IMG/VR virus record: IMGVR_UViG_3300020234_000015
Span: 1-34,202 of that record
Length of the DNA stretch: 34,202 bases
Origin: a virus
Lineage: Duplodnaviria; Caudoviricetes
Reading direction: 5' to 3' (one strand)
Below are positions 16,690-33,973 of this stretch, in pieces. Under the pieces are notes generated by a model, which saw nothing but the letters and a program-made list of their open reading frames with translations, was not told where the DNA came from and made no database searches. Position 1 is the stretch's first letter; each line of letters starts with the position of its first letter. The position numbers were made by a program, and so were the translations under genes.

Positions 16690-18489
16690 ATGCCATCCAA
16701 GACCCCTGCTCAAGCAAGACTAATGAGAGCTGTCGCACACGGTTGGAAGAAACCTGGAGGCGGAGGTCCGTCACCTGCCGTGGCTCGTGAGTTCGTGAAC
16801 GCTGATCGGAAATACGCTGGTGGCTTTGCGGAGAACCGATACTGGACAGGTGGTCTTGCTGCCATGAATGAAATCAATTCCGGCATTGATGAAACTCTTA
16901 ACTGGGCACACGGTGGTGAGATAGATTTGAATTGGGGTGAGCGATACGACTTGGGTAACGAACCGCTTACGCGGAATCAACTCATTAAGAAAATGGGCGG
17001 AGGAACCAAAGGTTTCTTCAGGCTTTCAAAACTCATTCACCAAGGCGGCTGGGCTTCGGATGCGAGTCAGGGAAAGGTAAATAAGAACACGATATTCTAC
17101 CCACCGCAGCCGACTCTCCTTGGTGCCGGAGCTGGACCTCTGAACGAACGCGAAGAGCCCATGCTTCGCGGGCCAGGTCCTCGACGCGGTGGTCGAGGTG
17201 GCGGACGTCGAGGTGGAGGCGGAGGTCGCGGTGGTGGTGGAGGCCGACCTCCCGGTGGAGGAGGAGGTGGAGGTGGCGGAGGTCCGCCGGGTGTAGAAGG
17301 TACACCTCCAGCAATTATTCCGCCGACCGTTGCACCACCAGATCGACGTGCAGGAAGAGACACTGAATATTCAGCAGCATTGCGGGCGCACAAAGAGCGT
17401 GTCGCAGCATCATTAGCGGTGCCACCGGGTGGCTACGCAGGAGGAGGTCAAGTGAATTACTACCAAGAAGGCGGAGAAGCTTTAGCTCGCCCCGGTCATG
17501 CAGAGGGAGCGAATCCATATCCCGAAGGCTCGGCTCGCTACAATTACTGGGAGAGCAGGAAGCATGTAGATCCCCCTCCTCCTGTTGTAGACGTCCCACC
17601 TGAGCCCGAAGATCTTAGTTGGCTTGACCGATTGCTGGGCAGAGAAGGTGCTCGACAAGGCAAGACCGAAGAGTACCTTGAGTCGCAGGGCGAAGGCATG
17701 GAAGAAGCGTACGGTGGTTACATTGACGCGCCGGGTTACCAGTTCGGTGGACTTGCGCAGGCAGGTGGCTTCCGTGGTCCGCCACGAGGTGGTGTGCCTC
17801 CGAACATGAGAGGCGGGATGAAACCCCGCATGGGTGGCATGCCTCCGCGTATAGATCCGCGTTCGATGCCTCCGATGCGCGGTGGTGGTGGGGGTGGCAT
17901 GCCTTGGCGCGGTGCACCTCCGCCTCGTGCACAGATAGGTGGTCCCGGTGGTATGCCTTCGATGCCGCCGGGTAAAGGACCGAGACGCATGGTCCCACCG
18001 AGCATGCCGCCGGGTGGAGTCGGTACCTTAGGTGGACCCGGCTACGGACCAAACCCATTAGGTAGCGCAGGTCCCGGCGGATCTTTAAGAGGTGGTGACC
18101 CGAGAGCGATGCCTCCGGTTCCCCTCGGTGGACCTGTTAGAGGAATGCCGCCGATGGGTGGTGGTCGGAGTCCCGGACAATACCCGACAGGGATGCCGCC
18201 TCAAGGTGGAGGTGGTGGAATGCTTACCAACGTTCGCAATCAAGCTGAAGCATTTCGTGGTGCGATTCCTGGAGGCGGAGCAGGACCAACAGGTGGTCCT
18301 CAGGTAGCTCCGAACATGCGAGGCATGCTGCAGAAGATGCGAATGCAGAATCGTCCTCCGGCTAACGTCGGTGGAGGTGCGAACCGCGTGGGAATGCAAG
18401 ATCAACAGGGAGGACTAGCACGCGCTCTTCAACGGGGGACAGGTCGTCGTCCAATGTCGAGGCGTGGGGGCTTCCCCGGTCGTCGTTAA
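16690..18489 (+). CDS. Low-complexity Gly/Pro/Arg/Met-rich protein (599 aa) with conserved-looking N-terminal MPSKT.AQ.RLM.AVAH module
   Basis: One continuous ORF starting 1 nt after the previous stop. It has an RGG tract, GMPP repeats and seven xxGG motifs. Confidence 0.75.
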   Translation: MPSKTPAQARLMRAVAHGWKKPGGGGPSPAVAREFVNADRKYAGGFAENRYWTGGLAAMNEINSGIDETLNWAHGGEIDLNWGERYDLGNEPLTRNQLIKKMGGGTKGFFRLSKLIHQGGWASDASQGKVNKNTIFYPPQPTLLGAGAGPLNEREEPMLRGPGPRRGGRGGGRRGGGGGRGGGGGRPPGGGGGGGGGGPPGVEGTPPAIIPPTVAPPDRRAGRDTEYSAALRAHKERVAASLAVPPGGYAGGGQVNYYQEGGEALARPGHAEGANPYPEGSARYNYWESRKHVDPPPPVVDVPPEPEDLSWLDRLLGREGARQGKTEEYLESQGEGMEEAYGGYIDAPGYQFGGLAQAGGFRGPPRGGVPPNMRGGMKPRMGGMPPRIDPRSMPPMRGGGGGGMPWRGAPPPRAQIGGPGGMPSMPPGKGPRRMVPPSMPPGGVGTLGGPGYGPNPLGSAGPGGSLRGGDPRAMPPVPLGGPVRGMPPMGGGRSPGQYPTGMPPQGGGGGMLTNVRNQAEAFRGAIPGGGAGPTGGPQVAPNMRGMLQKMRMQNRPPANVGGGANRVGMQDQQGGLARALQRGTGRRPMSRRGGFPGRR

Positions 18490-21150: not shown

Positions 21151-22566
21151 TTAGGCAAACATCGCACGGGTTTTTCGAATTCTTCTCGCACCTTTGCCAG
21201 CTGTTCCTCGACGCTTCGATACTTTCTTTTTGCGGTACCGGTCGAGGACAAGCGTCGCGAAATCTTTTTTGCGTGCAACCGCTTCATAGTATTCATCCTC
21301 AATTGTGTCGCGCGCCATGAGGAAGAAGTACTTCACCCAATCCGTATGTTCCATGCTCAGAATGCGGAACCGCGCCTGTTCGAATGTGATGTGACTGTGA
21401 TCCCAGCTGTAGAACACGTACGTGTTTGCTTCCGACAAATCGAAACCGAGTCCGCTCTTCACCTGCAGGATGACGTAGTCAACATTGAAATTCAGATCCC
21501 ACTCGTGCTGCCCAGAGATGATCTTGTAAGTCCAGTTGAACGCATCGAACTGTTCAGCGATGGCATCGATCTCGTGCGTAAAGCGGCAGCAGATGACTGT
21601 CTTTTCCTGGCCGAAACCCGACAGCAGCTCCATGAGCGTGTCCAGCTTCTCAGTGCCGACAGGTATGATGATGCGCGTGCGCTTCTTCTGGCCGGGAACG
21701 CGCTCCTGATGCAAAAGGAAACCACCGCAAACTTGCTGCAGCTTTTGCGGCAGGTTTACCGGCAGGGGGACGCCAATCGTCAGTTCGTCGATGGTGGTTT
21801 CCATGTCTTTCTTCAGCTCTTCGTAGATGTGTCTCGTCTTACGATTGAGGTCGAAGTACACCTTCTTCCTGCGGACGCGTACGGGGGACTTTCCCATTGA
21901 GACACGCGCTTCGTTGAATGTAATTCGGTAACTGTATCGATGGATGATTTCGAGGATTTCTTCTTCGTGTTGGTAGCCAACGAGCACGGGGTACTCTCGA
22001 CCGTCTTTACGCTGATGAGTTTCGTAGATGACATAGCGCTCCTTAAACGATCCGTAAGTGCCAAACACCTGCTTGTGCAAGATGAAATCAAACACAGCCC
22101 AGTACTGCTCGTAACCTTTGTCGGCTGGCGTACCCGTCAGTGCGAGTCGCCACTGTGCACGCTTGCCCAGCGTTCGTGTGAATCGGGACTGTGCAGTTCC
22201 CGGCTTCTTAATAAAATGAGCTTCGTCCGCAATGACCATCAGCGTGCCGCCATCATCCACCCAGTCCTTTGACCATTTGTACCACTGCTTGCGCAGCTGC
22301 AGATTTTTCACCGGCTCTTGGTACGTGACAAGGTAGATGTCGCAGTCCCAGTCGTTGTCGAGATGTTCCTCGATCTGTTCGTCCCAGGTTTTCGCTGCTT
22401 TCTTTGGGCACACGATAACCAGTACCTCCGGCTTTCGCTCGTCAACGATAGCCAGAGATACCAGACACTTCCCCGTGCGCTGTTCCGGAAAGAGAGCGAA
22501 GCCATCGTGCAATAATGCCGCAGCGACAGCCTCCCTCTGATACGGACGAAGCTCCGTACGGATCAC
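21151..22566 (-). CDS. SNF2-like superfamily 2 helicase
   Basis: Q-motif LRPYQ, Walker A RTGK, DEAH, motif III LTGTP, GLGFDL and QARFRI. Confidence 0.9.
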   Translation of the reverse strand: MIRTELRPYQREAVAAALLHDGFALFPEQRTGKCLVSLAIVDERKPEVLVIVCPKKAAKTWDEQIEEHLDNDWDCDIYLVTYQEPVKNLQLRKQWYKWSKDWVDDGGTLMVIADEAHFIKKPGTAQSRFTRTLGKRAQWRLALTGTPADKGYEQYWAVFDFILHKQVFGTYGSFKERYVIYETHQRKDGREYPVLVGYQHEEEILEIIHRYSYRITFNEARVSMGKSPVRVRRKKVYFDLNRKTRHIYEELKKDMETTIDELTIGVPLPVNLPQKLQQVCGGFLLHQERVPGQKKRTRIIIPVGTEKLDTLMELLSGFGQEKTVICCRFTHEIDAIAEQFDAFNWTYKIISGQHEWDLNFNVDYVILQVKSGLGFDLSEANTYVFYSWDHSHITFEQARFRILSMEHTDWVKYFFLMARDTIEDEYYEAVARKKDFATLVLDRYRKKKVSKRRGTAGKGARRIRKTRAMFA

Positions 22567-23354
22567 TAAGCTTTCGTCAGCTCAGCGAGGGGAATTTCCC
22601 ACTCCCCTTCTTCATCATCGACTACGACTGCCATGTCGTCTTCGATTCCCTCGATCACACCTTGGTACTCTTCGCCGTCTTCGTCTTCGAAGGTAACGCG
22701 AGCGCCAGGACGGAGTGCAGTCGATTTACGGGTTTTTTTCTTGCCTGCTTTTTTCTTTGAGGCTTTCTTTTTGCCTTTCTTTTTGGCAGCGGGAGCTGGA
22801 GCCTCTTCTTCTTCCTCTTCTCCTTCATCTTCTTCTTCCTCTTCTGGCTCTTCCTCCTCTTCTTCGCCCTCATCTTGCTCAGGGATTTCACCACCCTGCT
22901 CTTCGACGTACTGCTGTGCTACTTCCTCGGTCAGGTAACCGGTTACACGAGGCTGATCTTTCTCTTCGTACTCCTCGTTCACGATCTCCAGACCACACAT
23001 GTTCCCGACCAAATCATCGGGATCAAAGTCGAAGGGACCATCAGGGGTGTCGTATCCCATGCAGTTGAGCGCAGTGCGCAAAACCCACAACGACTGTGGT
23101 ACTAACACGAACCGGTCGAACACTGTCGAGCCGATGTGTGTCTTCCAACGAACGGTGACCATGTCATTACCAGCTTGGCTCGCTTCCAGTTCAGCGCTCA
23201 TGATTTCAGCGACGTAGTAACCGTCCGGTGTGGGCATTCCACCTCCGGCCTCTACATCAGTGAAGTCAACTGTTATGACGTTGGTCTTGCCCCGTCTCCC
23301 ACGCGTAGCTTTTTTCTTGCCACGCCTTTTACTTGGTGCCTTTCGTGTTGCCAT
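22566..23354 (-). CDS. DUF669-like single-stranded DNA-binding protein with acidic/basic linker and C-terminal SH3/Tudor-like domain
   Basis: PDGYY.AEI...E...SQAGNDM...DLVG..C...I..EEY OB-fold pattern next to the AAA_24 gene. It has poly-Glu then poly-Lys tracts. Confidence 0.7.
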   Translation of the reverse strand: MATRKAPSKRRGKKKATRGRRGKTNVITVDFTDVEAGGGMPTPDGYYVAEIMSAELEASQAGNDMVTVRWKTHIGSTVFDRFVLVPQSLWVLRTALNCMGYDTPDGPFDFDPDDLVGNMCGLEIVNEEYEEKDQPRVTGYLTEEVAQQYVEEQGGEIPEQDEGEEEEEEPEEEEEDEGEEEEEEAPAPAAKKKGKKKASKKKAGKKKTRKSTALRPGARVTFEDEDGEEYQGVIEGIEDDMAVVVDDEEGEWEIPLAELTKA

Positions 23355-24259: not shown

Positions 24260-25262
24260 GGTGACTCCCTCGTTCGACGTATTCACTCTTCATTATGAAA
24301 TCCGAATCAAGTCCACGGACCTCCGCTTCACAGATTGTTCGGTACTCACAGGTGTTGCAATTGAACGATGACATGCTGCGTGCACAGTGTTCACCATTCC
24401 TCTTGGCCTGAATTTCTGCCGCACTCTGCAGGAAATCGTTGACCACTTCAATGATCATGTCGGTACTGGGCTTCGGCAGGAACACGCGTTCGAAAAATGT
24501 GTCTTCTTTCCCTTCAAGCATCTCCAGCATGTCCACGTACTGGGTGGCGTCGAGATTCTCACGCCGGATTGTTTTGAGGTAAGTGTACGGATCGCAGTCC
24601 AAGTTTTTACGCTTCGACAGCTCACCGTTCTTCAGCACTTCCGGTTCTGTCGGTGCTTTCGCTTTGCCGTAGTCCCAGCAGATGCCGTCGATCTTTTCCT
24701 TCGGCTCCATCATGCCGTACGCCCACACGTATAACAGCAGCTGCAGCTCTTGGAACCGATCATCAGCCGTCGGAATAGACTTCATGAATTTGTGATCTAT
24801 CAGCCAGCGTCGGTCGTGCACGTCCCTTGCAATCTTGTCGATGAAGCCGATGAACATGAGCGGGAGAGCACCGCTACCCAGCTTGCTCAGGTCCACTTCG
24901 ATCTTGATCTCAGTCGCCTCATACGTCAGGGGGTCCTTGCGATATTTGCGTAAATATCCTTCGAAGATCATGCCGCAGTCGCCGATGATGTCACCGTGCA
25001 TGTCGCGCTCTTCTTCGAAGTAGGCAGCGTACTCTTCCGAGTACGTTTCGAGCACGTCCCACGGATCGGGACCGTCGTAATTCCTGCCGTTGATTTTGTT
25101 TTCGACGTACGCATTCAACATCTCGTGCAGGATCTCACCACGCAGTAGACGTACGCCTTTGAACTTACGTTTGATCTTCAGAAAATATCTGTACCACCAT
25201 GCCTTTTGACATCGTCGATATGAATTCACTTCGCTGAAACTAATGTGTTCCTTAGGCGGCAT
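24249..25262 (-). CDS. PD-(D/E)xK exonuclease (RecB/Cas4-like)
   Basis: ISFSEV..YRRC, G.ILH, GFIDKI...LIDHK, QL.LY and C-terminal C...CNTCEY..IC Fe-S-type cysteines. Confidence 0.85.
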   Translation of the reverse strand: MPPKEHISFSEVNSYRRCQKAWWYRYFLKIKRKFKGVRLLRGEILHEMLNAYVENKINGRNYDGPDPWDVLETYSEEYAAYFEEERDMHGDIIGDCGMIFEGYLRKYRKDPLTYEATEIKIEVDLSKLGSGALPLMFIGFIDKIARDVHDRRWLIDHKFMKSIPTADDRFQELQLLLYVWAYGMMEPKEKIDGICWDYGKAKAPTEPEVLKNGELSKRKNLDCDPYTYLKTIRRENLDATQYVDMLEMLEGKEDTFFERVFLPKPSTDMIIEVVNDFLQSAAEIQAKRNGEHCARSMSSFNCNTCEYRTICEAEVRGLDSDFIMKSEYVERGSHHAS

Positions 25263-27759
25263 ATTTTACTCCCTTTCCCCATGGACCCAGCTCCGCCTCG
25301 CCTTCCATTGGGACGCTGAGATTTATTTTAAATGTGTCCATCAACTTCGGTCGCTCTGCCATCTTCAACATCTTCGGCACGCACTCAGGGATAACTTCGT
25401 CCCTGACGATAGTCAGTACTGCGTCATGGTGTTCACCGACGAGGCGCACATGATCGCGCGGGAAAGTCTGGTGGATCTCGATCAGTAGCATTGCTTTGTA
25501 GTCGCCGATCAGTGCCTGAACTCCTGAGTTGACTGCCTGCCTCTCAGCTGCCATTTGAATCATCTTGTCCTTGGTCTGGATGCCGGGGAGTCTGCGTAGC
25601 CGACCAGTCAGGCATCGTACGTGCCCGTTTGATTTTGCAAGTCGCTTTGTTCGGGTGTGCCAGTCAGCCAGCCGAGAGTACAGGCGAAAGTATGCTTTCC
25701 GTGCTTGCTTCGCTTCCGTCATCGTCGGAGTCCAACCGTAATCTTTTGTCGCCTGCTCGATGAACTTCTTCGGGTACATGCCGAAAATAAAACCGAAGTT
25801 GACAGCCTTCGCGCGCGTCCTGCCTTCGTACCAACGTGGTGCAACTTTGATGCATTTCTGCGGGCCTGCCTCCATCAGGATCTGGAGACAATCGTTATAA
25901 GAGAGTCTGCTACAGCGCATGCGAGTTGGTTCGAGATATTCTGCTGTTAGCCACACCAGGTCGGTCCACTCACTATCCTGACTGATGGACAGGTTCTCGA
26001 TCATCGTGCGCCAGTGAATGTCGATGCCGTGGGTAAAACATCGACGCATCTCTGGGTCTTTGGACAGGTGTGCAGCAATGCGCATCTCTGCCGTGGCGAG
26101 GTCAAGCACACATAAGGTCCAGCCTTTTGGTGCAGTAATGAGGTTGCGGATCTTTCCATCGCGCGGGATAGGATGGAGCGGTGAGCTGTAACGTCCGGTG
26201 ACAGTGCCGTGCAGTTTGTAATCGAAGAAGTACCTGTCACCGACTCGGTATTTCTGCCAGCCCTTGATGTACGTGTTGAACATCTTTGCCGCACCGCGAA
26301 ATTTGAGAAGCTTCCTGACCACGGGTTTGGTTGCGATGCTGAGCAGTGCTTCTTCAGATGTGCTATTCGCGCCTTTCTTCGTAAAAATTTTGCACTGATA
26401 TCCCAGATCTTTGTATAGGAGTTTTCCGATCTGCGCTGGGCTGTTCCAGTTCACTTCATGACCTGTCATGTCGTTCAGCTCTTCGCGTTCCGTGATCATC
26501 TCTGACAGCAGCTGCAGCCCGATCTCTTTGCGCGCAGTGGGGTCAATAACGAGACCTTCCATCTCGGCATCCTCCATGGCGCGGGCTCCCGGCATCGTGA
26601 TCTTCCAGAAGAGACGGTGCAGACTGGGGTCTTCTCGGAGCATTTCCATGAATAAGTGTGCGAGGCGAAACGTGTACGTCGCGTCCTGCCCACAGTACTT
26701 GTAGTTGCGCACGGGCTTCTCAGACTTGCCCTGCTTCTCTGCCAGCGAGATGTCATACTCGGGCTCATCGAGGTAGGTGCGGCACAGGCTGGTCAGATCA
26801 TGATGAAGGTTTTCATCGATCACGTGGTGTGCGAGCATGACGTCAAAGGTCAGGCGGAATGACCCACCGAACATACACCGCATCCACTTGTTATCAAACT
26901 TCCCATTCTGCGCATACGTGCGTTTTTTATCGCGATGAGCAAGAAAAAAAAGCAGCTGCATCAGTTTCCGAAAAGCATCACCGTGCGCGAAGGGGCTGTG
27001 GGAAAATCGCTGGTACTCCGGGTGCATAAATCCGGGAATCACCCATGTTCGGTGGGGGAAAGCAATTGCGATTGCAGTGATGTACCGTTGTTTCTGGAAT
27101 GGGAAAAGCCCCGATGTCTCGCAGTCGTATGCGAATTCGGATGCCTCCTCGAACTCTCTTATAAAGGTAGCAAGATTACCCTTGCGGACGACCGTCCACG
27201 TGACTGTATCATCGCGCAAGCCGCCCTTTATGAGGCGGGCAAGCCGCGCAATGTCATCCTTCAGACCGGGGAGCTTAGACGGATCGCGAAGCGTATACGC
27301 CGGATGAAATATTGGCATTCCGATGTAACTGACTTTGGGATTCTCTATGATTTCTCCGTGGAATTGGTTGATCTTCGCCTTGCCACGGAAAAGCGTCTTC
27401 GTAGCAGGAACTCCAGCGGTAACGACAAAGTCGGGAGTTAGCTGCGCAATTTCTTCGTCGAGGTAGTGACGGCAAGCTTTGATCTCCGCTGCCGTGGGAG
27501 TTCTGTTATTCGGTGGCCTACACTTCACGAGGTTGGTGATGTAGGTGTGCTCGGCCAGGTCGTTGCGTTGTAATTCCCCCCTTAGAATGCGTCCAGACTC
27601 ACCTATAAAGGGCACACCACGTTTATCTTCGTTCGCGCCGGGAGCTTCCCCGATCACCATTACCTTGACGTTTTTGCGCGGCCCATCACCAGCCATGCAG
27701 ACCGTCTTCGCGGTCGCGTGTAATCCGCACTCAGTACACTCAGGGTTTAGGCTCGCCAT
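25252..27759 (-). CDS. DNA polymerase family A with N-terminal family-4 uracil-DNA glycosylase domain and 3'-5' exonuclease
   Basis: UDG: CxxC, GEAPG, KCRPPNNR, FHPA. Exonuclease: DCETSGL, NGKFD, YCGQD. Polymerase: TVTGR, DLATAEMR (motif A), RAKAVNFG (motif B), HD (motif C). Confidence 0.93.
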   Translation of the reverse strand: MASLNPECTECGLHATAKTVCMAGDGPRKNVKVMVIGEAPGANEDKRGVPFIGESGRILRGELQRNDLAEHTYITNLVKCRPPNNRTPTAAEIKACRHYLDEEIAQLTPDFVVTAGVPATKTLFRGKAKINQFHGEIIENPKVSYIGMPIFHPAYTLRDPSKLPGLKDDIARLARLIKGGLRDDTVTWTVVRKGNLATFIREFEEASEFAYDCETSGLFPFQKQRYITAIAIAFPHRTWVIPGFMHPEYQRFSHSPFAHGDAFRKLMQLLFFLAHRDKKRTYAQNGKFDNKWMRCMFGGSFRLTFDVMLAHHVIDENLHHDLTSLCRTYLDEPEYDISLAEKQGKSEKPVRNYKYCGQDATYTFRLAHLFMEMLREDPSLHRLFWKITMPGARAMEDAEMEGLVIDPTARKEIGLQLLSEMITEREELNDMTGHEVNWNSPAQIGKLLYKDLGYQCKIFTKKGANSTSEEALLSIATKPVVRKLLKFRGAAKMFNTYIKGWQKYRVGDRYFFDYKLHGTVTGRYSSPLHPIPRDGKIRNLITAPKGWTLCVLDLATAEMRIAAHLSKDPEMRRCFTHGIDIHWRTMIENLSISQDSEWTDLVWLTAEYLEPTRMRCSRLSYNDCLQILMEAGPQKCIKVAPRWYEGRTRAKAVNFGFIFGMYPKKFIEQATKDYGWTPTMTEAKQARKAYFRLYSRLADWHTRTKRLAKSNGHVRCLTGRLRRLPGIQTKDKMIQMAAERQAVNSGVQALIGDYKAMLLIEIHQTFPRDHVRLVGEHHDAVLTIVRDEVIPECVPKMLKMAERPKLMDTFKINLSVPMEGEAELGPWGKGVKYAA

Positions 27760-27922: not shown

Positions 27923-30031
27923 GTGGATCATAAAGCAGGTCTAGACGCGACACAAGCCGCCCAGCACTGGTTAAGGCAAAAAGTATACACCGTACCGCTG
28001 CGGAGCAGGTCAAAACGCCCAAAAGCGCGCGATTGGCCGCATCTCAGGCTTGTCGAGGAAGATCTCCGTAACGGGGCATTCAAGCGTGGTGACAACATTG
28101 GTGCGCTCTGGGGCGAGGCTTCAGAGGGTGCCACCGACGTCGATCTGGACATGGCAGAGGCTATCTGGGTAGCTGAACACATCCTCCCCGAGACGTTCAT
28201 CTACGGGCGCACGAATAAAGAATACTCTCACTACGTTTTCCGTGTCAAAGGTGCTGAAACGCGCAAGTGGCAGGTCTCCGAGCTGGGCACTATCGTCGAA
28301 ATTCGCTCCACAGGAGCACAATCAGTCATCCCGCCATCACGGCATCCGGAGGGTGGCGTTTACTTCACTAACGAAGACAACGACGATGAGTTCACGAAGC
28401 TAACCAAGCTGGACCTCGAACGATTTGTCGATGAGATCGCAGTCGCAGCTGTCTTCGTACACTTCTATCCTACAGCGGGATCACGTCACGATTACGTGCA
28501 CGCCTGCACGGGAGCACTGTGTCATCAGGAGTGGCCCGACGAGAAGATCCAGCGCGTGATGAGCGCGGTGCTCACTGTTATTCAGGATGAAGAAGACGAG
28601 ATCAAGGATCGGACAGGCACGGTGCGCAATACAGTCGAGAAGCACAAGCTCGGTGATCGCACGAAGGGATTCACGTCACTCGAAGCATGGATGAGCATGC
28701 CGGTCATCTCAGCTGTACGCAGGTGGACTGGCAGCGGCAAGCTGGAAGGCAAATTGGTGATCGCTCCGCCATCGATTAAACCGGAGGCTACCCGGCTGAC
28801 ATTTGATGATTCATTGTTAGAAGTGCCAGGTCTTGTCGGCGAAATTATTAAGTGGGGCAATCGCGAAAACTTCATCGATCAACCGATCTTCGGATTAGCA
28901 GCAGGCATCATGTGCACTGCGATGGCAACCTGCAATCACTACCTTGTGCAAAGTTGGGACACACCGCTGCAACCGTACTTGATGGTCACTGCACCGACCG
29001 GCGGAGGCAAGGAGTCAGCACTGCGTGCAGTCAGTAAATTTGCGCACAAGATGAGGCTCGACGATGTCGTGTTCCAACAGTTTCAATCGTACTACGCGAT
29101 GCTCGACGTCATGGCAGAAGAGAAAATGGCTTGCTGGTTGTGGGATGAAGCTGCGCGTTACATGGCAGCTGCGAAGAAAGCTACCACGTCGGATTTTGCA
29201 ACACTGAGTCACGTCATCTCTCTCTATGGCGCAGCAAATAAATGGGTGCCGGGATCACCGGGACGTAGACAAACAATTCCTGCACTCGATCATCCCTTTC
29301 TTACTGTGCTCGCGACTGCGCAACCTGAGATGTTGATGGAAGCACTGACCAGTACTGCACAAGAGACCGGCTTCGTAAATCGATTTATACTGCTCGACAC
29401 AGGCACGGACTACCACGGTACGAATCAACGACGCAGTCACGTGTTCCCGTCATCAATTGCAAAGCAGGCAAAATTATTACGTGATCACGAGCCGCGTGAT
29501 GGTGAGTTCACTGAGGTGAGATTTGCAGACACACGAACGTTCACTGCGTTTCAAGATTTCGAAGAGATGTGCCGACGTCGCACCATGGAGGGACAATTCA
29601 CATGGGCACGCGCAAATCAAAACGCACTCATCATATCTGGGCTTGCAGCTGTCGGTATCAATTCAATCCATCCCGTCATCGATATCGATCTATGTAAGTG
29701 GGCACTGCAGCTCGTGACATGGAGTTGTGATTGCTGGGATGAGAAAGTACGCATGACAGCGTCCGGTGATAGCTACAGTGAGAAGGATTCTTTTAAGATC
29801 GAACGCCTCATCAACAGTCCGCACAAGTACATTAATCAAAAGGGCAACACCAGTAACCAGCGCATCGCACTCCAACATCACTTCACTCCGCTCGCTGTGA
29901 TCACTCGCAACTGCAGAGGCATCGAACAGAAACGACGCGAACAAATTCTCAGCGACCTGCATGAGTCAGGGCTGATCGGGTCAACCGAAAAATACAATCA
30001 GGTTGTGTACTTCCCGCTCGCACAAAAGTAG
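27923..30031 (+). CDS. Primase-helicase: N-terminal bifunctional primase/polymerase (Prim-Pol) plus C-terminal P-loop domain (DUF3987-like)
   Basis: PL...SKRP...W, NIG...G...DVDLD, HYVF, EIRS.G.QSVIPPS.H, Walker A APTGGGKE, Walker B LWDE and GF.NRF. Confidence 0.88.
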   Translation: MDHKAGLDATQAAQHWLRQKVYTVPLRSRSKRPKARDWPHLRLVEEDLRNGAFKRGDNIGALWGEASEGATDVDLDMAEAIWVAEHILPETFIYGRTNKEYSHYVFRVKGAETRKWQVSELGTIVEIRSTGAQSVIPPSRHPEGGVYFTNEDNDDEFTKLTKLDLERFVDEIAVAAVFVHFYPTAGSRHDYVHACTGALCHQEWPDEKIQRVMSAVLTVIQDEEDEIKDRTGTVRNTVEKHKLGDRTKGFTSLEAWMSMPVISAVRRWTGSGKLEGKLVIAPPSIKPEATRLTFDDSLLEVPGLVGEIIKWGNRENFIDQPIFGLAAGIMCTAMATCNHYLVQSWDTPLQPYLMVTAPTGGGKESALRAVSKFAHKMRLDDVVFQQFQSYYAMLDVMAEEKMACWLWDEAARYMAAAKKATTSDFATLSHVISLYGAANKWVPGSPGRRQTIPALDHPFLTVLATAQPEMLMEALTSTAQETGFVNRFILLDTGTDYHGTNQRRSHVFPSSIAKQAKLLRDHEPRDGEFTEVRFADTRTFTAFQDFEEMCRRRTMEGQFTWARANQNALIISGLAAVGINSIHPVIDIDLCKWALQLVTWSCDCWDEKVRMTASGDSYSEKDSFKIERLINSPHKYINQKGNTSNQRIALQHHFTPLAVITRNCRGIEQKRREQILSDLHESGLIGSTEKYNQVVYFPLAQK

Positions 30032-30086: not shown

Positions 30087-30139
30087 CTATTTAACATAAT
30101 AACCCCCACTTGACAACGGCTACGCTCCCGTGGTATAGT
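30087..30139 (+). promoter_or_regulatory. Early sigma70-type promoter P1 with conserved upstream 14-mer
   Basis: CTATTTAACATAAT-9 nt-TTGACA-18 nt-TATAGT, with an extended -10 TG. Confidence 0.8.
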
Positions 30140-31755: not shown

Positions 31756-31913
31756 GCAGCATCAACCCGTTCAGGAAAGGTGACCCGGTCAGCATCAAAC
31801 GTGGTGCTGGCTGGATCACCGGCACAGTGGTCAAGACGGTACTGGCGCGCGTGCACATCCAGATCGACGACAAGGTGTACGTTGAAGACTGGCACGAGTG
31901 CAGACGGGCTTGA
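31752..31913 (+). CDS. Small SH3/KOW-like protein (53 aa)
   Basis: GTGA overlap start; FRKGDPV...W..GTVVK pattern. Confidence 0.6.
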   Translation: MSSINPFRKGDPVSIKRGAGWITGTVVKTVLARVHIQIDDKVYVEDWHECRRA

Positions 31914-31939
31914 CACAGTAGCGTTGATGTGTATATGAT
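31910..31939 (+). promoter_or_regulatory. Sigma70-type promoter P2
   Basis: TTGACA-18 nt-TATGAT. It lacks the upstream 14-mer of P1, P3 and P4. Confidence 0.7.
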
Positions 31940-31943
31940 GAGT

Positions 31944-32123
31944 TGAGTATTTTGTGAATCGGTGGGGGAGCTTTCGGTCTGAAGTGGTAGTGCTCCTAAG
32001 ACCCCTGCCGTTGATCCCGCGAGAGAAGCGGAGCCCATGACCCTAACCGGGTAGGCACTGCGGATTGATAACCGGGGTAGGAACAACAGGTAGTGTTGAT
32101 CCCACCGATTCACAAAGTACTTA
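31944..32123 (+). ncRNA. Candidate structured RNA (about 180 nt) closed by a 23 bp terminal stem
   Basis: 31944-31966 pairs with 32101-32123, including 2 G-U pairs. It begins at the expected TSS of P2, has several internal helices and contains no credible ORF. Confidence 0.7.
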
Positions 32124-32139
32124 CGCAAGGAGCAAGACA

Positions 32140-32415
32140 ATGTCATTGAAGAAAACAGCAGAGCCCGGATGCCCACACGCCACGTTCGTGAACAAAGCGG
32201 ACGGATGGACATGGAAAGTTCTCAAGGTGTACGCGATGGCGAAGACCGACAAGGGCAACAAGTACGCTCGCTGGCTCTTGGCTGTGCGCTCACCGGCTAC
32301 GTTCGGCGGCTACGATATCGGCGACACTTACATCAAAGACGTCCTGGGATATGCGACTCATTTGGAGTCAGCGACCGACGAATTTCGCGAGTACTTTACG
32401 GAGCTAAGAGCATGA
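32140..32415 (+). CDS. Early hypothetical protein (91 aa)
   Basis: ATG 32140 has SD AAGGAG. WTWKVLK.Y...YARW..AV.SP.T.G.Y..GDTY motif. Confidence 0.75.
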   Translation: MSLKKTAEPGCPHATFVNKADGWTWKVLKVYAMAKTDKGNKYARWLLAVRSPATFGGYDIGDTYIKDVLGYATHLESATDEFREYFTELRA

Positions 32416-32956: not shown

Positions 32957-32959
32957 GGG

Positions 32960-33011
32960 CTATTTGACATAATATATCCTATTTGACACGGCAGCGCTAG
33001 TGTGGTAAGCT
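32960..33011 (+). promoter_or_regulatory. Early sigma70-type promoter P3 with conserved upstream 14-mer
   Basis: CTATTTGACATAAT-9 nt-TTGACA-17 nt-TAAGCT, with an extended -10 TG. Confidence 0.8.
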
Positions 33012-33052
33012 GAGTGCAAGTTGAGATTTCCTCAACGACAAGGAGCAAGCAA

Positions 33053-33802
33053 ATGTTAATGTTCAGTAAAGACGACAACACCGTCAGCCGCCAGGATCTG
33101 GTTCGGTTCGACGACGCAGCCCTCGCGCTGCACACTCGCTCGCACAAGCCCGTTCCTTTCTCTACCGGCATCGATCTCATTCAGGATGTCGCTGAGAAGC
33201 AGGGCTTCCGCTTCGGCGAAGAGCAGTACGTTCTGGCTCGCAACGACACGCAGCTGTTCGGCCTGATCGAGGTCCTCAACTTCAGCACTGACGAGAGCAA
33301 GATCTGCTTCGGCGTTCGCAGCTCAATCAACAAGTCACTCAGCTGGCAGTTGTGCGGCGGCGAGTCCCTCGCGATCTGCACCAACCTCGACCTCTTCGGT
33401 TCAGTTGTCCTGCGCCGCAAGCAGACGTCCATGGTGATGGCTGACCTGCGCACGCTGGTCGGTAACTTCATGGGACAGTTCGAGCAGTCTGTCGCAGACC
33501 GCGCTGTTCAGGTGGCACGCTACAAGCAGGCCCAGTTGAAGGATGCCACTGCGAACCATTGCATCATCCAGATGCTGCGCAAAGACATCATCGTCAGCAG
33601 CAAGGTGGCGAAGGTCGTTGACGAGTACTACGAGCCCAGCCATGTTGAGTTCCTCAACGAAGATGGCGAGCGCACAAACTGGACGCTGTTCAACGCAGCG
33701 ACCGAAGCGTTCAAGGGTTCACCGATCAGCACCTACACCGAGCGCAGCCAGAAGCTGCACGACCTGATCGGATCCGCAAGCGACTACGCACTAGCCGCGT
33801 AA
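33053..33802 (+). CDS. DUF932-family protein with ssrA-like C-terminus
   Basis: ATG 33053 has SD AAGGAG. H.PVP, G.R.S..KS, G....ICTNL and NWTLFNA.TE motifs are present. It ends SDYALAA. Confidence 0.75.
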   Translation: MLMFSKDDNTVSRQDLVRFDDAALALHTRSHKPVPFSTGIDLIQDVAEKQGFRFGEEQYVLARNDTQLFGLIEVLNFSTDESKICFGVRSSINKSLSWQLCGGESLAICTNLDLFGSVVLRRKQTSMVMADLRTLVGNFMGQFEQSVADRAVQVARYKQAQLKDATANHCIIQMLRKDIIVSSKVAKVVDEYYEPSHVEFLNEDGERTNWTLFNAATEAFKGSPISTYTERSQKLHDLIGSASDYALAA

Positions 33803-33815
33803 CCGCACGCTCCGT

Positions 33816-33853
33816 AGCCCCCTGATCCAGCGATGGTGACGGGGGCTTTTTTT
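33816..33853 (+). terminator. Rho-independent terminator
   Basis: AGCCCCC...GGGGGCT stem followed by a T run, 13 nt after the stop codon. Confidence 0.8.
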
Positions 33854-33880
33854 ATTTCACGCCCTCAGGATCGAATAAGG

Positions 33881-33932
33881 CTATTTAACATAATATACGG
33901 CATTTGACACGGGAGCGCTAGTGTGGTATGAT
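33881..33932 (+). promoter_or_regulatory. Early sigma70-type promoter P4 with conserved upstream 14-mer
   Basis: CTATTTAACATAAT-9 nt-TTGACA-17 nt-TATGAT, with an extended -10 TG. Confidence 0.85.
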
Positions 33933-33973
33933 GACTCATCTTACATAAAACGCGACACCTCCGGAGCACCAAC

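What the first reader, a model, noticed from the sequence alone, without database searches (positions are those of the whole stretch)
31910..32139. Promoter-driven ~180 nt highly structured RNA in the early region that I cannot assign to a known family
Seen: directly at the expected TSS of TTGACA-18-TATGAT, 31944-31966 pairs with 32101-32123. The 23 bp stem has two deviations and both are G-U pairs, which favours an RNA-level, + strand structure. Internal helices are GGAGC/GCUCC (31967-71/31992-96) with inner UUUC/GAAG, ACCCC/GGGGU (32001-05/32074-78), CCGC/GCGG with two alternative partners, GCC..ACCC/GGGU.GGC, and CAACA/UGUUG. The loop GGUCU (31976-80) can pair with AGACC (31999-32003), as a pseudoknot or a switch. 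The stem ends just before the SD of the next gene and no terminator follows. Inference: an early ncRNA, possibly excised by RNase III at the closing stem, acting as a decoy, anti-defence RNA, 6S-like sponge or ribozyme; alternatively a cis-regulatory leader. It is the largest non-coding stretch in the window.
Basis: partly seen in the sequence, partly recalled or inferred. Interest (0 to 1): 0.8.

Follow-up and report, generated by a model that had tools for sequence, protein, structure and literature searches.

The report
Phage RNA built from four kink-turns
A group of uncultured phages keeps, right behind a strong early promoter, a 130-180-base non-coding RNA of no catalogued family that is predicted to fold as one hairpin bent by four kink-turns, and that likely acts as a compact decoy for a host RNA-binding protein.

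Summary
Real, but not folded as first proposed. The promoter (31910-31939) and closing stem (24 pairs, 31944-32123) are there; the interior alone folds no better than shuffles (z -0.11). Thirteen distinct copies were found, one per genome in 7 of 8 related phage genomes, ahead of six different genes; the core is far more conserved than synonymous sites (82-100% vs 46-78%). Two resemble 16S rRNA Kt-23; the middle two face each other across ten pairs, the spacing of an engineered k-turn horseshoe. Two of the four deviate in this window's copy, and ViennaRNA ranks the rod 9-23 kcal/mol above its minimum. The 'pseudoknot' is a plain covarying side stem in long forms. No Rfam match, no cellular copy found, expression untested. 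Most likely a stand-alone early RNA acting as a protein decoy (about 0.4); leader/attenuator, ligand sensor and self-assembly remain open. The scan had no look-alike of this sequence, but noted unrelated k-turn phage RNAs.

The parts
31910..31939 (+). sigma-70-type promoter, -35 31910-31915, -10 31934-31939; start site expected near 31945-31947 (inferred)
   Evidence: -35 box 33-39 nt before the stem in 11 of 11 copies; related promoters at 32958-33013 and 33879-33934
31944..32123 (+). the non-coding RNA (long form, about 180 nt; short forms about 130 nt)
31944..31967 (+). 5' arm of closing stem P1 (pairs with 32100-32123), 24 pairs here, 11-13 in short forms
   Evidence: double changes also among short forms
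32100..32123 (+). 3' arm of closing stem P1
31965..31972 (+). predicted kink-turn 1, non-bulged strand (partner 32092-32102, bulge GUU 32095-32097); Kt-23-like in 7 of 11 copies (2n = U), standard G.A/A.G in this copy
   Evidence: -2 pair C-G 7, G-C 2, U-A 2; 3b.3n U.G 11 of 11
31976..32003 (+). optional side hairpin of long forms: 5-bp covarying stem 31976-31980/31999-32003 with an 18-nt variable loop; loop here holds 31991-31997, complementary to the phage's early ribosome-binding motif
   Evidence: (helix 3)
32004..32007 (+). helix P2 5' arm (pairs with 32087-32090), next to an A-rich bulge 32082-32086
   Evidence: two double-compensatory changes in L112
32008..32015 (+). predicted kink-turn 2, bulged strand (bulge GUU 32010-32012; partner 32077-32081), Kt-23 type: G.A, A.U, U.G, L1 = G
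   Evidence: 11 of 11, partly by ascertainment; Kt-23 determinants from PMC2790904
32013..32022 (+). shared non-canonical helix joining k-turns 2 and 4 head to head (partner 32070-32079), ten pairs between the bulges
   Evidence: same spacing as the engineered two-k-turn unit, PMC5058347
32065..32072 (+). predicted kink-turn 4, bulged strand (bulge 32067-32069; partner 32020-32024); deviant here (1b = A)
   Evidence: 1b.1n G.A in 8 of 11, A.A in 3 of 11 including the window; 3b.3n C.C 10 of 11
32025..32032 (+). tandem G.A, variable 2x2 loop, 3-bp helix and A.A pair (partner 32057-32064)
32033..32056 (+). predicted kink-turn 3 with terminal hairpin (bulge 32036-32038, loop 32044-32048, 5-8 nt in relatives); weaker form here (2n = U, 3b.3n C-G)
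   Evidence: 2b.2n A.G in 5, A.U in 6; 3b.3n C.C/C.U in 5, C-G in 6
32128..32415 (+). ribosome-binding motif 32128-32134 and first downstream gene (91 aa, start 32140), not fixed to the RNA
   Evidence: no PHROG or Pfam family

Best explanation
This is a phage non-coding RNA gene behind a host-type promoter, whose product is predicted to fold, likely without protein help, into a compact object bent by four kink-turns, and which likely works in trans as a decoy that ties up a host kink-turn-binding protein, most plausibly a Kt-23 binder such as ribosomal protein uS11 or an L7Ae-family protein. Steps: (1) promoter and conserved, covarying non-coding sequence: shown in sequence; (2) transcription early in infection: inferred; (3) release as a discrete RNA, by RNase III cutting of the 24-26 bp stem in long forms or by termination at stem plus U run in short forms: inferred; (4) four-k-turn fold: supported by comparison, not probed; (5) protein partner and effect on the host: inferred, untested.
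For: One copy per genome in 7 of 8 related phage genomes (window plus 6 of 7 relatives). Core identity 82-100% against 46-78% at four-fold sites of a neighbouring gene, and 83-88% against 48-54% for the polymerase. Six unrelated genes follow the 11 copies and the ribosome-binding site lies outside the stem, as expected of a free-standing RNA. Rod model: 98.6% of cells paired, 8 double-change pairs in 7 distinct long copies; core 99.0%, 3 double-change pairs in 10. A nested chain of four k-turn motifs is found in 9 of 11 copies under relaxed rules and reached by 0-2 of 400 shuffles of those copies, by 9 background windows of 17,826, and never on the reverse strand (1-2). K-turns 1, 2 and 4 carry 3b.3n pairs that published rules link to folding in Mg2+ alone (PMC8191799, PMC4382518). 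K-turn 2, and k-turn 1 in 7 of 11 copies, have the A.U, U.G and L1 = G features needed by T. thermophilus Kt-23 (PMC2790904); S11 is named as folding its cognate k-turn (PMC5061560, cited there as unpublished). Either a long stem or a short stem plus 5-6 U is present in every copy.
Against: No expression or binding data. ViennaRNA places the rod 9-23 kcal/mol above the minimum-energy fold in all 11 copies (the model has no k-turn term) and RNAalifold chose another fold on nine copies. In the window's own copy k-turn 4 has A at 1b and k-turn 3 has a Watson-Crick 3b.3n pair, both predicted to fold poorly; the strict count is 3. L024 and L069 score only 3. Most core pairs never vary, the P2 covariation rests on one sequence (L112), and the k-turn rules and the parsing grammar were set after seeing the sequences. 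Similarity to E. coli helix 23 is limited to k-turn positions (3b and L3 differ) and may be convergence on the fold. Ion-folding k-turns correlate in the literature with protein-free RNAs, which fits rivals as well. One close relative (G001, 96% complete) lacks the RNA.
Confidence: 0.4

Rival explanations
1. A cis-acting leader: the paired 5' end protects the early transcript, and the stem plus U run (or RNase III site) sets how much of the downstream genes is made, perhaps tuned by a protein that stabilises the k-turns.
For: Always between a promoter and a ribosome-binding site 22-36 nt beyond the parsed segment; in four short forms it occupies the promoter of the 249-aa early gene, so read-through must occur; 5 of 11 copies have a terminator-like end.
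Against: Six different downstream genes; no conserved pairing to the ribosome-binding site; 63 of 90 core columns invariant, more than a stabiliser needs.
Confidence: 0.2
2. A ligand-binding or catalytic RNA (riboswitch-like aptamer or ribozyme) in which the k-turns build a pocket.
For: Ion-folding k-turns typify riboswitches (PMC4382518); invariant unpaired or non-canonical positions (tandem G.A, A.A, A-rich bulge).
Against: No Rfam match; no common gene family downstream to hint at a ligand; no shared expression platform; no pseudoknot supported.
Confidence: 0.13
3. A self-assembling structural RNA: the alternating NC-NC and C-C linked k-turns close into a ring or stack into oligomers that scaffold or sequester factors.
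For: Ten-pair head-to-head unit equals the engineered horseshoe that packs into dumbbells, triangles and squares (PMC5058347); engineered k-turn RNA forms filaments and short natural RNAs form cages (bioRxiv 10.64898/2026.07.01.735769).
Against: No free helix end or conserved kissing loop; terminal loop and side loop vary in length and sequence. Purely by analogy.
Confidence: 0.12
4. An antisense regulator that displays an anti-ribosome-binding-site loop to damp the phage's own early genes.
For: 31991-31997 is the exact complement of the 7-base motif before 5 early genes of the window; GGAGCA is the commonest extension before starts in most relatives.
Against: Present in 4 of 11 copies only; the other long forms have unrelated loops and four short forms have no loop; phages without the loop or without the RNA use the same motif.
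Confidence: 0.08
5. A DNA-level element (inverted repeat, origin or protein-binding site) or a hidden coding region.
For: A 9-base word occurs twice (32010-32018, 32095-32103); a 198-codon frame on the - strand overlaps it.
Against: G-U and G.A pairs work only on the + strand RNA (k-turn chain 1-2 on the reverse strand); double-compensatory changes; indels of 1, 2 and 3 bases among copies break any frame.
Confidence: 0.07

Closest known systems
Kt-23 of 16S rRNA (T. thermophilus, E. coli; PMC2790904)
   Same: A.U at 2b.2n, U.G at 3b.3n (as in T. thermophilus), G at L1, C-G at -1: k-turn 2 in all copies, k-turn 1 in 7 of 11.
   Different: Not in rRNA context; bulge GUU instead of GCA/GUA; flanking helix unrelated; no other 16S similarity beyond 8-10-base chance words.
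Engineered two-k-turn horseshoe unit, PDB 4CS1 (PMC5058347)
   Same: Two inverted k-turns joined through their NC helices, bulges on opposite strands, ten pairs between the bulges.
   Different: Natural, asymmetric, uses Kt-23-type and C.C-type k-turns rather than Kt-7, and is embedded in a single-strand hairpin with two more k-turns.
Double k-turn of euryarchaeal RNase P RNA P12 (PMC5499556)
   Same: Natural RNA with linked k-turns, one with U at 2n, proposed to fold a long helix back.
   Different: There the NC helix of one is the C helix of the next (3 bp) and L7Ae binds; here links are NC-NC and C-C, and no L7Ae or Nop gene was found in the phages.
K-turn-bearing bacterial/phage motifs: OLE (YbxF/OapC site, PMC9723947), Actinomyces-1, drum, HOLDH, RAGATH-18 (PMC8191799); GOLLD, ROOL
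   Same: Structured non-coding RNAs of unknown or partly known function; Actinomyces-1 has the same C.C 3b.3n type as k-turn 4.
   Different: One k-turn each is described for the first five; no Rfam match to any; this RNA is small and made almost wholly of k-turns.

Membership tests
Kink-turn motif | 3-nt bulge followed by G.A and A.G (or A.U) pairs | tested here: met
   k-turns 1, 2, 3 in 11 of 11; k-turn 4 in 8 of 11 (A.A at 1b.1n in 3, including the window)
Kink-turn motif | canonical helix 5' of the bulge and paired helix beyond 3b.3n | tested here: met
   C-stems are short (2-3 pairs) and k-turn 4's has a C.A mismatch in 2 of 11
Kink-turn motif | 3b.3n pair permitting ion-induced folding | tested here: inconclusive
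   met for k-turns 1, 2, 4; k-turn 3 is C-G in 6 of 11 including the window (rules)
Kink-turn motif | kinked 3D geometry with cross-strand A-minor bonds; L7Ae binding | not testable with these tools
   needs FRET, probing or structure
Any Rfam 15 family (riboswitches, 6S, SRP, Y RNA, ribozymes, OLE, GOLLD, ROOL) | covariance-model score above gathering threshold | tested here: not met
   0 hits in the window; best 15.7 bits vs 42; 5 homologue loci best 16.4 vs 100
tRNA / tmRNA | cloverleaf or tmRNA signature | tested here: not met
   ARAGORN 0 genes
Box C/D-like or TIGR-Tas RNP | Nop-domain or L7Ae partner gene in the element; repeat array | tested here: not met
   no PF01798 in 5 and no PF01248 in 5 relative genomes, 59-96% complete; single copy per genome. 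TIGR-Tas known to me from a search listing only
16S helix-23 mimic | binds uS11 and competes with rRNA | not testable with these tools
   only sequence likeness at k-turn positions
Intrinsic terminator | stem followed by a U run | tested here: inconclusive
   5-6 U in the first 8 nt after the stem in 5 of 11 copies, none in the window

The most novel reading that the evidence does not exclude
A natural counterpart of engineered k-turn nano-objects: four k-turns linked alternately C-C, NC-NC, C-C form a near-closed ring that presents two copies of the ribosome's Kt-23 elbow (and, in some phages, an anti-ribosome-binding-site loop) as a multivalent decoy of the 30S platform, a new way for a phage to steer host translation or to blind an RNA-sensing defence.
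Probability: 0.2. Interest if true: 0.87.

Novelty: new variant of a known kind. Interest (0 to 1): 0.66.

Why it matters
Few phage small RNAs have a known fold, and energy-based folding misses this one entirely. A 130-nt RNA made almost wholly of k-turns, with a head-to-head pair at the spacing chemists designed, would be a natural test of k-turn folding rules and a ready crystallography or cryo-EM target. If it binds a ribosomal protein or an immune sensor, it would add RNA shape mimicry to the phage take-over toolkit. The short forms (L018, L019, L068) can be made by in vitro transcription and tested at once without the phage or its host.

Tried and rejected
Rfam and ARAGORN: nothing. blastn against cultured phages gave 8 short chance matches, plasmids none. 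Downstream-protein relatives L001/L002 lack the RNA. Pattern scans: 19 of 24, 49 of 62 and 3 of 9 (57) hits were unrelated; 63 of 69 and 71 of 77 (64) did not score with the model (5 already known loci were left out of each). GTDB pattern scan: 8 hits, none scoring with R1; L121 (20 bits with R2) and L300 (22.7 bits, 120, 123) lie inside long open frames and were rejected. Model R2 found nothing in 121 + 121 sampled genomes of two bacterial classes (only 36 candidates scored per genome) or in 5 annotated phage records with a related capsid or polymerase: not found in those searched. No RNA holder listed; no reads were laid. No L7Ae or Nop gene; no real gene was shared by all carriers and missing from the non-carrier (output of 94 partly cut). 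The first empirical control missed its own positive because of the step size and was redone. A mis-registered CAACA/UGUUG count was corrected. Y RNA, SRP, pistol, hammerhead and c-di-GMP-II likeness were considered from recall and dropped for lack of any Rfam score. Supplement search of PMC10690425 found nothing in 6 files, but files 1, 2 and 4 were not searched.

Full report
Setting. The window is a virus record, 53% complete, of a tailed phage with primase, family A polymerase, exonuclease, helicase, ejection proteins and endolysin. The element lies in a run of small + strand genes after the primase. The capsid protein of relative G010 is 77% identical to that of Caulobacter phages RW, KcrB, RLK and GB2A, so a proteobacterial host is likely but not shown.

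Observation. The promoter scores 11 of 12. The closing stem is present, with two G-U pairs and a 24th G-U pair. The 200-nt region folds at -79.7 kcal/mol, z -4.56, but the interior without the stem has z -0.11: energy alone supports only the stem. Rfam and ARAGORN give nothing.

Homologues. Neighbouring proteins brought in five copies independently of the RNA sequence. Pattern scans gave 5 true copies among 24 viral hits, 13 among 62 metagenome hits, three identical to the window, and 6 among 9 viral hits with one new, more distant copy, L112. That makes 13 distinct promoter-to-start sequences; I parsed 11 (L047 and L090, near-identical to L024, were dropped; L069 equals L024 over the parsed part, so 10 are distinct). 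Six of seven relative genomes carry exactly one copy; G001 (polymerase 74% identical, 96% complete) has none and falls among carriers in two weakly rooted trees, so the RNA is dispensable or was lost. No cellular copy was found. The 90 fixed core positions are 82-100% identical to the window while four-fold sites of the 249-aa early gene are 46-78% identical, and 83-88% against 48-54% for the polymerase; 63 of 90 columns are invariant. Invariance at pattern positions is partly ascertainment, but the five protein-found copies show the same features. Six different genes follow the RNA. Indels of 1-3 bases exclude coding.

Structure. All 11 copies parse as one long hairpin: closing stem, k-turn 1, a junction with an optional side hairpin, helix P2 beside an A-rich bulge, k-turn 2, a shared helix, k-turn 4, tandem G.A pairs and a short helix, k-turn 3 and a small loop. 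On ten cores it has 99.0% and 3. The tool warns that such shuffles ignore relatedness. The clearest single test is L112, found by a pattern that did not include P2: it changes two P2 pairs on both sides and breaks three of five pairs of CAACA/UGUUG (61, 77). The -2 pair of k-turn 1 takes three pair types. The proposed pseudoknot is a 5-pair side stem, kept in all seven long-insert copies with three double changes, holding an 18-20 nt variable loop. A chain of four k-turn motifs appears in 9 of 11 copies under relaxed rules (strictly in 7; 3 in the window), in 0-2 of 400 shuffles of those copies, in 9 background windows among 17,826 and not on the reverse strand. Against: rules and grammar were post hoc; ViennaRNA, which has no k-turn term, puts the rod 9-23 kcal/mol above the minimum; RNAalifold on nine copies chose another fold with no double changes; in the window k-turn 4 has A at 1b and k-turn 3 a C-G 3b.3n pair.

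Reading the k-turns. By published rules (PMC8191799, first part of text read; PMC4382518, abstract and passages, 44, 131) 3n = G or 3b = C allow folding in Mg2+ alone; k-turns 1, 2 and 4 comply in all copies, k-turn 3 in 5 of 11. K-turn 2, and k-turn 1 in 7 of 11, carry the A.U, U.G and L1 = G set that lets T. thermophilus Kt-23 fold unaided (PMC2790904, passages); E. coli helix 23 shares the core positions but differs at 3b and L3. K-turns 2 and 4 face each other across ten pairs, as in the engineered horseshoe (PMC5058347, passages and results part 1, 86, 87). The natural double k-turn of RNase P is linked differently (PMC5499556, passages). The links alternate C-C, NC-NC, C-C, so the RNA would resemble a four-k-turn ring opened at one link (inference).

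Ends. Six copies have a 24-26 pair stem and no U run; five have 11-13 pairs followed by 5-6 U. Two routes to a defined 3' end, RNase III cutting or termination, would fit a free RNA (inference from general knowledge of these enzymes).

Mechanism. I commit to an early, self-folding decoy for a host k-turn-binding protein (0.4). The phages encode no L7Ae or Nop protein in the genomes searched, and the L7Ae family was absent from the E. coli control, so a ribosomal Kt-23 binder such as uS11 (PMC5061560, passages) is the first candidate; YbxF on OLE RNA (PMC9723947, passages) is the precedent for a bacterial k-turn RNP. Rivals: cis leader or attenuator (0.2), ligand sensor or ribozyme (0.13), self-assembly (0.12; bioRxiv 10.64898/2026.07.01.735769, first part and passages, 85, 88), antisense to the early ribosome-binding motif (0.08; the window's loop matches it exactly but only 4 of 11 copies do, 97, 99), DNA element (0.07). 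I put about 0.9 on a real RNA and about 0.7 on the k-turn rod.

Novelty. Searches of the paper library for kink-turn with phage, decoy, S11 mimicry and multiple k-turns showed no such RNA; subscription papers are not held, and three supplement files of the viral structured-RNA survey PMC10690425 (passages read) could not be searched, so part of the family may be listed there. The scan's notes hold no look-alike but several unrelated k-turn phage RNAs, unchecked. Verdict: a new family, a new variant of k-turn-built non-coding RNA; interest 0.66.

Noticed in passing
window 31991-31997 and 30167, 30718, 30969, 32129, 33042, 33963: All six GGAGCA motifs that precede an ATG open frame lie in the early cassette; the side loop of this copy is complementary to them. 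GGAGCA is the commonest or joint commonest extension in 7 of 8 genomes, including the one without the RNA.
   Followed up: partly
window 30087-30139, 32958-33013, 33879-33934: A family of early promoters with an AT-rich upstream block and a conserved spacer; short forms of the RNA sit at the counterpart of the 32958 promoter, long forms at the 31910 promoter, so the RNA has moved between promoters.
   Followed up: partly
window 33053-33802: A 249-aa early gene, 79-94% conserved in six relatives, with no PHROG family, only a sub-threshold DUF3871 match and no hit in cultured phages.
   Followed up: no
window 33803-33860: A GC-rich hairpin followed by a long T run right after the 249-aa gene looks like an intrinsic terminator that the simple scan did not list.
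   Followed up: no
window 27923-30031 versus 25252-27759: Primase and polymerase trees disagree on the window's nearest relatives, pointing to module exchange in this clade.
   Followed up: partly
L001:2860-3230: A homologue of the 91-aa gene downstream of the RNA appears as the end of a longer frame in an unrelated phage, apparently a fused domain.
   Followed up: no
window 16690-18489, 17173-17301 and 22566-23354: Low-complexity repeat tracts inside long genes.
   Followed up: no
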